Both the position numbers and the translations under genes were made by a program. From contig NC_090348.1 of assembly GCF_035084215.1 (NCBI RefSeq), forward strand, positions 7,130,001 to 7,194,000: a DNA stretch of 64,000 bases, given 5' to 3'. How positions within the stretch are numbered: the first letter of the stretch is position 1; every line of letters begins with the position of its first letter. This document shows positions 39,798 to 41,079 of the stretch, in pieces. The DNA comes from Heptranchias perlo (lineage: Eukaryota). The notes under the pieces were generated by a model. It saw only the letters and a list, made by a program, of their open reading frames with translations, made no database searches and was not told the origin of the DNA.

Positions 39798-40402
39798 GGC
39801 TCCGACATGTTTAAAACCCCCCAAAAAAGTGTGAAACTGGGCTCTGAAATGGAAGGGAAATTTACAACTTGCATTTCTGCAGCGTCCCTCACGTGCAGGA
39901 AAACACATCGACTGTGTTGTAACACTTTTGAGAAGAAAAATTCAACAAGAGATTTAGGGAGACGGCAACAGCTTGAAATTGTTCAAGTCAATGTTGAAAG
40001 TAGAAGGGTGGAGATAGGCAGAGAGAGTGGTTCCTGAAATAATTTTGCTGCTTTGGGCAACAATGCAGAGGTCATATCAAGGACATGTGGCATTTTAAAA
40101 CCAAAAAGCAAATAAAAAGTTAATCCCTTAGACATTTTCTGCACAGACATTGGTGCATATTAGATGGTATAGCAGGTCATAATATCGGACACCGATGATT
40201 GCTGGAAACACACGAGTTTGGGGAAATTTTTAGTGGGCAACTGATTGTATTTAGCCCAGTGGAAGGTCCAGCAATCCTGGTCCACCAAATTAGGGTCACA
40301 AATGTTCAGTTCCTTGTCTTGACTGGATCCAATCTATGCTATAGAAACATACTGTAAACAATTTTACAACACCAAGTTATAGTCCAGCAATTTTATTTTA
40401 AA

Positions 40403-40441
40403 TTCACAAGCTTTCGGAGGCTTCCTCCTTCGTCAGGTGAA
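40403..40441 (-). ncRNA. minimal hammerhead ribozyme
   Basis: exact reverse complement of 40478-40516. Confidence 0.75.
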
Positions 40442-40477
40442 CGATGTGAAAATGAAAATGAAAATGATTTCACATCG

Positions 40478-40516
40478 TTCACCTGACGAAGGAGGAAGCC
40501 TCCGAAAGCTTGTGAA
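40478..40516 (+). ncRNA. minimal hammerhead ribozyme
   Basis: TTCAC-CTGACGA-A-GGAGG-AAG-CCTCC-GAAA-GCTT-GTGAA. Confidence 0.75.
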
Positions 40517-41079
40517 TTTAAAATAAAATTGCTGGACTATAACTTGGTGTTGTAAAATTGTTTACAATTGTCAACCCCAGTCCATCACCGGCATCTCCAC
40601 ATCATAGAAACATACAAAAGTGATGGGCAGTCATCAAAACCCTGCAATTAAACGTCTACGTATAAGGGAAAAAGCCCCACAAAGAGAGGGGATGGCTGCT
40701 GCCAATTATTTCCATGCACATTTTGGATTACTCCACAATGTTGCAGTAGTATTTTCAGTACAAACAAGGAGGTCTGGTTTAGGTACTAGCTGCTCTTCCA
40801 ATGCATCCTCCTGTCAATCTCGAAGAGGTTGCACGGCCTGGCTATTAATGCACAGTGTCAGAGAGGGTAGACTACTGCATAGAATCGACAATCCTCATCA
40901 CGTCCACTGGTCGCCATGGCATCGGGTTGTACCAAGTCAGGAGCAGGTGGTCAGTTTTCTCTGAAAAGTGCCAATATTCCATCAATGAACAGATATAGGT
41001 TTTAAAGAGCACTGAAGTTGCTGACAGTGGCTTATAAGGTTGAGGTTTCTGAATTCCCAACTTGTATTCCCCAGTATAC

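What the first reader, a model, noticed from the sequence alone, without database searches (positions are those of the whole stretch)
40341..40615. 251-bp palindromic mini-Penelope carrying hammerhead ribozymes on both strands
Seen: perfect 99-bp inverted arms around a 16-nt (GAAAAT)n-like spacer, each arm holding a full hammerhead motif, plus a 37-nt unpaired tail like the Penelope 3' end, all flanked by a 12-bp TSD. It repeats the architecture of the 2.1-kb Penelope at 3859-5959 with all coding sequence removed. The perfect arms imply recent insertion. Established: Penelope-like elements carry hammerheads in their pLTRs and form inverted-pLTR insertions. Inference: either an extreme 5'-truncation product or a retrozyme-like non-autonomous family. 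In the host pre-mRNA the 99-bp hairpin would compete with ribozyme folding and could be a Dicer/ADAR substrate.
Basis: partly seen in the sequence, partly recalled or inferred. Interest (0 to 1): 0.75.

Follow-up and report, generated by a model that had tools for sequence, protein, structure and literature searches.

The report
Back-to-back leader stubs of Neptune retrotransposon
This 251-base hairpin is one of many thousands of stub insertions left by a Penelope-like jumping gene, made of two back-to-back copies of the element's leader with its small ribozyme motif, and it likely arose when two reverse transcriptases each ran off the front end of the element's RNA, so it is likely a dead-end by-product and not a family that copies itself.

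Summary
Observation confirmed: 99-bp perfect arms, 16-nt spacer, 37-nt tail, 12-bp TSD, a minimal hammerhead motif per arm. It is real and common. The tail junction has 30,160 exact matches, and 51 of 94 distinct tail-anchored loci are such mini-palindromes. It is not a retrozyme-like family: this centre is unique in the genome, and the most repeated centre I saw has 14 copies, in both orientations. The parent is an intact 902-aa Neptune-type element whose ATG follows the tail. Arm ends pile up 30-31 nt after the parent's TATA box: 28 of 100 arms end there, and genome-wide counts halve within 5 nt. In 10 of 93 palindromes the two arms carry different source haplotypes. Best reading (inferred): two priming events copy the 5'UTR to the transcription start, and end-joining fuses them into a promoter-less dead end whose ribozymes the hairpin would mask. 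The inverted-pLTR-plus-tail structure is published, and this scan noted such minis in two other genomes. I found the start-site cliff and mixed arms in no paper searched.

The parts
40341..40352 (.). left target-site duplication, 12 bp
   Evidence: identical to 40604-40615; 12 bp is the family mode, 63 of 121
40353..40451 (-). inverted arm: tail-less copy of the parent's 5'UTR/pLTR end, starting about 36 nt upstream of the parent ATG
   Evidence: 100% complement of 40468-40566; most inverted arms in the tail-anchored sample start 32-37 nt before the tail end
40403..40441 (-). minimal type I hammerhead motif, minus strand (stem I to stem I)
   Evidence: core 40412-40436; mirror of the plus-strand motif
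40452..40467 (.). junction: short repeats of the last bases of the left arm, likely filler made when the two cDNA ends were joined
   Evidence: this centre occurs once in the genome; relatives show other deletions, duplications and snap-back inserts
40468..40566 (+). direct arm: parent 5'UTR from TATA+32 onward
   Evidence: with the tail, 136 of 136 nt identical to long copies L177, L247, L251
40478..40516 (+). minimal type I hammerhead motif: 5-bp stem I, core, unpaired A, 5-bp stem II, palindromic helix III; predicted cut between 40511 and 40512
   Evidence: 94.4% of cells pair over 18 natural variants, 3 of 10 pairs change on both sides; matches the features in PMC4209133
40567..40603 (+). 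37-nt one-sided tail; in the intact parent it is followed directly by the ORF's ATG
40604..40615 (.). right target-site duplication; its first two bases also match the parent's ATG
3859..5959 (-). 2.1-kb insertion of a sister subfamily with the same inverted two-arm layout and long arms; not the source of the mini
   Evidence: inverted arms 3889-4104/5745-5960 and 4224-4634/5215-5625; alignment to the mini

Best explanation
The element is two back-to-back copies of the 5' leader of an intact Neptune-type Penelope-like retrotransposon, likely made in one insertion event by two separately primed reverse transcriptions that each ran off the RNA's 5' end, and likely unable to move again. Shown: the parent's layout (TATA box, initiator-like site, hammerhead, tail, ATG), arms that are exact pieces of that leader, arm ends piling up at TATA+30/+31, a new junction and TSD at nearly every locus, and some palindromes with two source haplotypes. 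Inferred: a dimeric RT-endonuclease nicks both strands about 12 bp apart. One strand primes at the tail end and the other about 36 nt upstream, on uncut RNA. Both cDNAs stop at the transcription start about 131-138 nt upstream of the ATG, and host end-joining fuses them with trimming and templated filler. The stub lacks the TATA box and the ORF start. In read-through RNA from either strand the antisense arm comes first and would trap the ribozyme in a 99-bp hairpin.
For: Parent: 902-aa ORF in tandem units about 3.08 kb apart, ATG right after the tail, TATA 161 nt upstream in that subfamily. Length cluster: 80 of 147 arms in 94 distinct loci end 114-141 nt upstream of the ATG. In the mini's own subfamily, of 100 arms reaching TATA+37, 62 end at +27 to +37 (14 at +30, 14 at +31), 8 end at +8 to +23 and 30 run past the TATA box. 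Genome-wide counts: 4752 reach +31, 2435 reach +26, 2191 reach +20, 1912 reach +3. In a subfamily whose hammerhead lies 6 nt nearer the TATA box, 6 of the 8 truncated arms among 30 end at +31, so the stop follows the promoter, not the ribozyme. Two templates: 10 of 93 palindromes have two established haplotypes, 3 of them differing at two sites, against about 0.5 expected from the 8-in-2900 background. Junction made anew: unique centre; a recurrent centre occurs with the tail right in 8, left in 5 and not found in 1 of 14, on three haplotypes. In vitro, the lizard PLE nicks and extends both strands, starts at two internal sites that bound the tail, uses uncut RNA, needs ORF sequence downstream of the start site and is modelled as a dimer (PMC11167929).
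Against: No RNA 5'-end data: the start site is inferred from motif spacing and genomic ends only. 72 of 93 palindromes have identical haplotypes in both arms, as a single-template fold-back would also give. The second subfamily's test is small, its pattern begins at +31 so later ends are invisible, and it reuses loci; there several arms of that type end at +11 to +28 and +32 to +47. The cliff is blurred (+27 to +37). The 1912 count is not strictly nested, and uncounted sequence variants could lower the longer patterns. The in vitro data come from a Poseidon-clade element whose start sites lie inside the ORF. D. virilis Penelope is reported to use a TATA-less internal promoter (PMC2377424). Samples come from the first part of one contig or were picked by likeness to the query.
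Confidence: 0.65

Rival explanations
1. Single-template fold-back: one cDNA or an antisense RNA snaps back on itself (the self-priming idea of Arkhipova et al. 2013) and copies itself to give the inverted arm; mixed arms come from later gene conversion.
For: 72 of 93 palindromes have the same haplotype in both arms; snap-back motifs and short palindromes sit at many junctions; proposed in PMC3846280.
Against: 10 of 93 carry two established haplotypes against about 0.5 expected, 3 at two sites; the inverted arm starts at a fixed site 32-37 nt before the tail end, matching the second RT start site seen in vitro (PMC11167929); either arm can be the longer one.
Confidence: 0.15
2. The length cluster is set not by the RNA's 5' end but by an RT stall at the folded hammerhead, or by later collapse of longer inverted insertions through cruciform breakage.
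For: The cluster lies just upstream of the hammerhead; many arms end between the core and +31; long perfect palindromes are unstable (recalled).
Against: The mode lies 16-17 nt upstream of the core in one subfamily and 10 nt in another, but at TATA+30/31 in both; arms joined to unrelated DNA stop at the same place; long inverted copies persist.
Confidence: 0.13
3. A non-autonomous, retrozyme-like family: one or a few palindromic masters are transcribed and mobilised whole by the Neptune protein.
For: Very high copy number and near-invariant arms; one centre recurs 14 times; PLE-derived retrozymes exist (bioRxiv 10.64898/2026.07.22.740005).
Against: This centre is unique; 76 of 90 centres are distinct; the recurrent centre comes in both orientations and on three haplotypes; the hammerheads are head-to-head, not tandem; the TATA box is absent.
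Confidence: 0.05
4. Assembly fold-back artefact.
For: The arms are perfect; no read-level check of this locus was obtained.
Against: 12-bp TSD, one-sided tail, non-palindromic spacer; 123 relatives with varied centres, and 103 of 121 with 12-14 bp TSDs.
Confidence: 0.01

Closest known systems
Insertion units of endonuclease-bearing Penelope-like elements with inverted pLTR and tail (PMC3846280, PMC8557442, PMC2377424)
   Same: Inverted 5'-truncated copy next to a direct copy, 30-40 bp tail on one side, TSD, hammerhead in the pLTR, promoter motifs in the pLTR.
   Different: No coding sequence at all; this minimal form is the commonest product here (51 of 94), and its ends cluster at the predicted transcription start. 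PMC3846280 explains the inversion by self-priming, while some arms here come from two source haplotypes.
PAc (Anolis Poseidon) in vitro, Frangieh et al. 2024 (PMC11167929)
   Same: Two internal RT start sites bounding the tail, both strands nicked and extended, uncut hammerhead RNA as template.
   Different: Poseidon clade, with start sites 111-118 nt into the ORF; here a Neptune-type element with start sites at and before the ATG. The text I read does not explain inverted stubs or a 5' length cliff.
Minimal type I hammerheads of metazoan PLEs (PMC4209133)
   Same: Short stem I, unpaired base before stem II, G10.1-C11.1 pair, palindromic helix III, dimer-dependent; opposite-strand pairs 100-700 bp apart were noted in Schistosoma and put down to truncated PLEs.
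   Different: Stem II is 5 bp here (7-8 bp in Schistosoma); the cut site is after U; activity not tested.
Non-LTR retrozymes (bioRxiv 10.64898/2026.07.22.740005)
   Same: Non-coding, PLE-pLTR-derived, type I hammerhead.
   Different: Retrozymes are head-to-tail tandem repeats with a hammerhead in each unit; this is a head-to-head pair with a locus-specific junction.

Membership tests
Penelope-like element insertion (EN+) | Derived from an element with one RT + C-terminal GIY-YIG ORF | tested here: met
   902-aa ORF right after the same tail; RVT_1 hit E 3.3e-10. GIY-YIG read by eye (VVYLIRC...YIGET); Pfam gave no endonuclease hit. The mini's own subfamily was matched through long copies; the intact ORF belongs to a close subfamily with the same tail.
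Penelope-like element insertion (EN+) | Inverted 5'-truncated copy next to a direct copy, 30-40 bp tail at one end, TSD | tested here: met
   definition from PMC8557442
Neptune clade (parent) | CX2-5CxxC motif between RT and endonuclease | tested here: met
   C-X4-C-X2-C in the ORF; feature from PMC8557442, which Nematis shares
Neptune clade (parent) | Groups with Neptune rather than Nematis in an RT tree | not tested
   No reference sequences held; the label rests on the motif and on Neptune's known presence in fishes (PMC4209133)
Minimal type I hammerhead | Conserved core boxes, stems I and II, palindromic helix III | tested here: met
   94.4% pairing against 91.8% shuffled (1 of 500 reach it) and 28-53% when slid; only 3 of 10 pairs change on both sides, 52 of 500 shuffles reach that
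Minimal type I hammerhead | Self-cleavage (as dimer or protein-assisted) | not testable with these tools
   needs a bench assay
Non-LTR retrozyme | Head-to-tail tandem units each with a hammerhead | tested here: not met
   the two motifs are on opposite strands
Non-autonomous family copied as a unit | Many copies share the same internal junction | tested here: not met
   1 genome match for this centre; 76 of 90 centres distinct; recurrent centre in both orientations
Non-LTR retrozyme | Circular RNA intermediate | not testable with these tools
   no raw RNA reads listed

The most novel reading that the evidence does not exclude
These stubs are a genome-wide record of the Penelope insertion reaction in vivo. 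A dimeric enzyme carries two RNAs, sometimes from different loci, primes both target strands at two fixed internal sites and, on ordinary mRNA, can only copy the 5'UTR. Most insertions are therefore self-silencing hairpins that mark the transcription start to the base, while full-length spread needs tandem read-through RNA. This would explain the inverted pLTR, the tail, the tandem requirement and the excess of solo hammerheads by one rule, and would replace the self-priming model.
Probability: 0.5. Interest if true: 0.65.

Novelty: new member of a known kind. Interest (0 to 1): 0.45.

Why it matters
The insertion itself is ordinary for Penelope-like elements. Its value is as evidence on an open question: how these telomerase-related retrotransposons build their inverted ends, and why most copies are stubs. 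If the reading holds, stub ends map the element's start site and mixed arms show a two-RNA complex, both directly testable with the published in vitro system. The genome also carries on the order of 15,000 near-perfect hairpins of about 100 bp (rough extrapolation of 51 of 94 to 30,160 exact matches). That is a potentially large source of double-stranded RNA wherever they are read through, and a trap for repeat annotators, who may file them as MITEs or miRNA precursors (one search gave miRNA-like hits below threshold).

Tried and rejected
A shared breakpoint 1915 nt upstream looked like a second master element; one search showed it is the inversion point of my reference copy only, so I rejected it. 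Rfam found no hammerhead model match. The fine-mapping script mis-called arms from subfamilies with indels missing from its library (for example L076, L080, L108, L121, L146, L148, L157); I used it only for the two well-covered subfamilies and relied. Sequencing runs: no RNA holder listed, only contigs whose RNA status is a guess; laying four of the five gave no start or end sites, so it is no evidence on expression. Read-level support, empty-site polymorphism, splicing and editing at the locus remain unchecked. A direct genome-wide count of palindromes was not obtained, so the number is extrapolated. No host exon was found in 62 of 118 open frames scanned; short exons could be missed. Nine of 147 arms end within 85-93 nt of the ATG, at or just after the predicted ribozyme cut (1.0 per nt against 0.25-0.5 next door); the bins were chosen after looking, so I treat this as a hint only. 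No earlier notes exist for this place. Paper searches found no account of a start-site cliff or mixed arms; subscription papers, Repbase/Dfam entries and all supplements, including Fig. S2 of PMC11167929 on genomic copy ends, were not seen.

Full report
Observation. The anatomy is exactly as described: 99-nt arms at 40353-40451 and 40468-40566 with no mismatch, a 16-nt spacer, a 37-nt tail and a 12-bp TSD. Each arm holds a hammerhead core; the only other two in the window lie in the 2.1-kb element. The motif has a 5-bp stem I, an unpaired A before a 5-bp stem II, and a four-base palindrome in place of helix III. These are the features of the minimal, dimer-dependent hammerheads of animal Penelope-like elements (PMC4209133, parts 1-2 of 4 read). 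Across 18 natural variants 94.4% of cells pair, against 91.8% in shuffles and 28-53% when slid; only 3 of 10 pairs change on both sides, so the structural support is modest. Rfam did not recognise the motif.

Genome context. The window lies in a 3.25-Gb assembly. The surrounding repeats look to me like those of cartilaginous fishes; that is recalled and no call names the organism. Of the 40 best-scored candidates out of 399, 39 places matched over nearly the whole length at 91-100%. A 35-mer across the arm-tail junction has 30,160 exact matches and 0 for the reversed control. I fetched 99 of the first 100 of these; the other was already held and left out. After dropping 5 duplicates, 51 of 94 are mini-palindromes, 16 are short without a nearby inverted end and 27 are long. 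Among 123 short inverted pairs from all my loci the median length is about 236 nt, and 103 of 121 scored TSDs are 12-14 bp. The element is therefore real and typical.

Parent. Tandem units about 3.08 kb apart carry an intact 902-aa ORF whose ATG follows the tail directly. It has an RT domain and, by eye, a C-X4-C-X2-C motif before a GIY-YIG region, the mark of Neptune and Nematis elements (PMC8557442, 12 of 19 passages seen). The mini's right arm and tail are identical to long copies of one subfamily (136 of 136 in 3 of 4, 135 in the fourth). The 2.1-kb element in the window is a sister subfamily. Upstream of the hammerhead every long-copy type listed carries a TATAAA-like box, 39-47 nt before the core depending on subfamily. 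In the mini's subfamily an initiator-like A sits at TATA+30 (initiator consensus recalled). So the arms correspond to the predicted 5'UTR.

Family or independent products. This centre occurs once in the genome. 76 of 90 centres in my loci are distinct (that set includes loci fetched for sharing a centre). The most repeated centre I noticed has 14 matches: tail on the right in 8, on the left in 5, not found in 1, on three hammerhead haplotypes. One master cannot give both orientations, so the junction is rebuilt at each insertion. Centres show deletions, short duplications, snap-back inserts and captured foreign DNA, which I read as polymerase-theta-type end-joining (recalled, not tested). The retrozyme definition, tandem units each with a hammerhead (bioRxiv 10.64898/2026.07.22.740005; part 1 of 5 and passages), is not met.

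Where the arms stop. 80 of 147 arms in the 94 loci end 114-141 nt upstream of the ATG. Of the first 100 arms bearing the mini's exact hammerhead 35-mer (4,379 in the genome), 62 end at TATA+27 to +37, with 14 at +30 and 14 at +31; 8 end at +8 to +23; 30 run past the TATA box. Genome-wide, 4752 arms reach +31, 2435 reach +26, 2191 reach +20 and 1912 reach +3, the last not strictly nested. Half are lost in five bases and few thereafter. In a subfamily whose hammerhead is 6 nt nearer the TATA box, 9785 reach +31 and 6975 reach +24; of 30 such arms, 22 run past the TATA box, 6 end at +31, one at +19 and one at +14. The stop thus tracks the promoter rather than the ribozyme. This second test is small, cannot see ends after +31, and overlaps the loci, where other arms of that type end from +11 to +47. 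The mini's right arm starts at +32; its left arm is templated to +30 at least and +25 at most.

One template or two. Among 93 palindromes with both cores, 72 have the same haplotype and 21 differ. In 10 of these both haplotypes are also seen as matched pairs elsewhere, and 3 differ at two sites; the other 11 involve variants not seen as matched pairs. The background arm-to-arm mismatch of 8 in 2900 predicts about 0.5 such cases (an earlier pass on fewer loci gave 62 and 20 of 82). So at least a tenth of the palindromes were copied from two different sources. Gene conversion among tens of thousands of copies is not excluded, and the matched majority fits either model.

Mechanism. In vitro, the lizard element PAc nicks and extends both target strands, starts reverse transcription at two internal sites that bound the tail, does not need hammerhead cleavage, needs ORF sequence downstream of the start site, and is modelled as a dimer (PMC11167929, parts 1-2 of 4 read). 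Applied here by inference: one strand primes at the tail end and the other about 36 nt upstream (most inverted arms start 32-37 nt before the tail end). On an mRNA that starts in the upstream pLTR, both cDNAs run out after about 131-138 nt and are joined, giving this hairpin. Long arms would come from priming at the next unit of a tandem transcript. The stub has no TATA box and no ORF start, so it is likely inert. The rival, self-priming on one template, was proposed in PMC3846280 (11 passages seen); it explains the matched arms but not the mixed ones. D. virilis Penelope is reported to have a TATA-less internal promoter (PMC2377424, 11 passages), so loss of the promoter here is an inference.

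Ribozyme fate. The whole element folds at -174.7 kcal/mol; forcing the hammerhead stems gives -106.2. On both strands the antisense core precedes the sense core, so the hairpin is predicted to form as the ribozyme emerges. 'Ribozymes on both strands' is true of the DNA but unlikely to mean cleavage. Whether the site is in a host transcript is open.

Novelty. Inverted pLTR, tail, TSD and opposite-strand hammerhead pairs are in print (PMC3846280, PMC8557442, PMC4209133). Two earlier notes of this scan describe the same kind of mini in other genomes and reach the same dead-end reading; I had stated my reading before seeing them and count them as no extra evidence. The start-site cliff and mixed-haplotype arms were not found in seven paper searches; PMC12602865 yielded only a reference line, other listed papers were seen as listings only, and no supplements were read. 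Verdict: a new member of a known kind, of moderate interest for what the family shows about mechanism.

Noticed in passing
window 55761-57427 and 62333-64000: Long nested inverted repeats, 91-96% complementary, about 5 kb apart; possibly another long inverted insertion running off the window end.
   Followed up: no
window 32816-33337 (+) and 35695-36538 (-): Myb/SANT-like domain and DDE_Tnp_4 fragments facing each other, the gene pair recalled for PIF/Harbinger DNA transposons.
   Followed up: partly
window 40452-40467 and the end of the left arm: The six-base unit repeated at the junction is the complement of the first six bases of the predicted transcript; it could be slippage at the RNA 5' end by a telomerase-related RT or ordinary repair filler.
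   Followed up: no
L061, L064, L070, L071, L151, L152, L161: Nine of 147 arms end 85-93 nt before the ATG, at or just after the predicted ribozyme cut, a weak hint that some templates were self-cleaved.
   Followed up: partly
L072, L096, L131, L138, L179/L180: Palindromes whose centre holds tens to about 200 bases of non-element DNA.
   Followed up: no
L195 3872-6580 (+); L197 1383-4091 (-): Intact 902-aa ORFs in head-to-tail arrays with about 3.08-kb period, a sign of recent activity.
   Followed up: partly
L092 3895-7400: A long inverted insertion with two RT-endonuclease arms joined inside the RT gene, the same layout as the mini at large scale.
   Followed up: partly
window 22068-23009: GA-rich tandem repeat with units of about 34 nt.
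   Followed up: no
window 39252-39323 (+) and 38735-38791: A tRNA-like match at Rfam's gathering score (29.1 bits), perhaps a SINE head, and a small unrelated hairpin.
   Followed up: no
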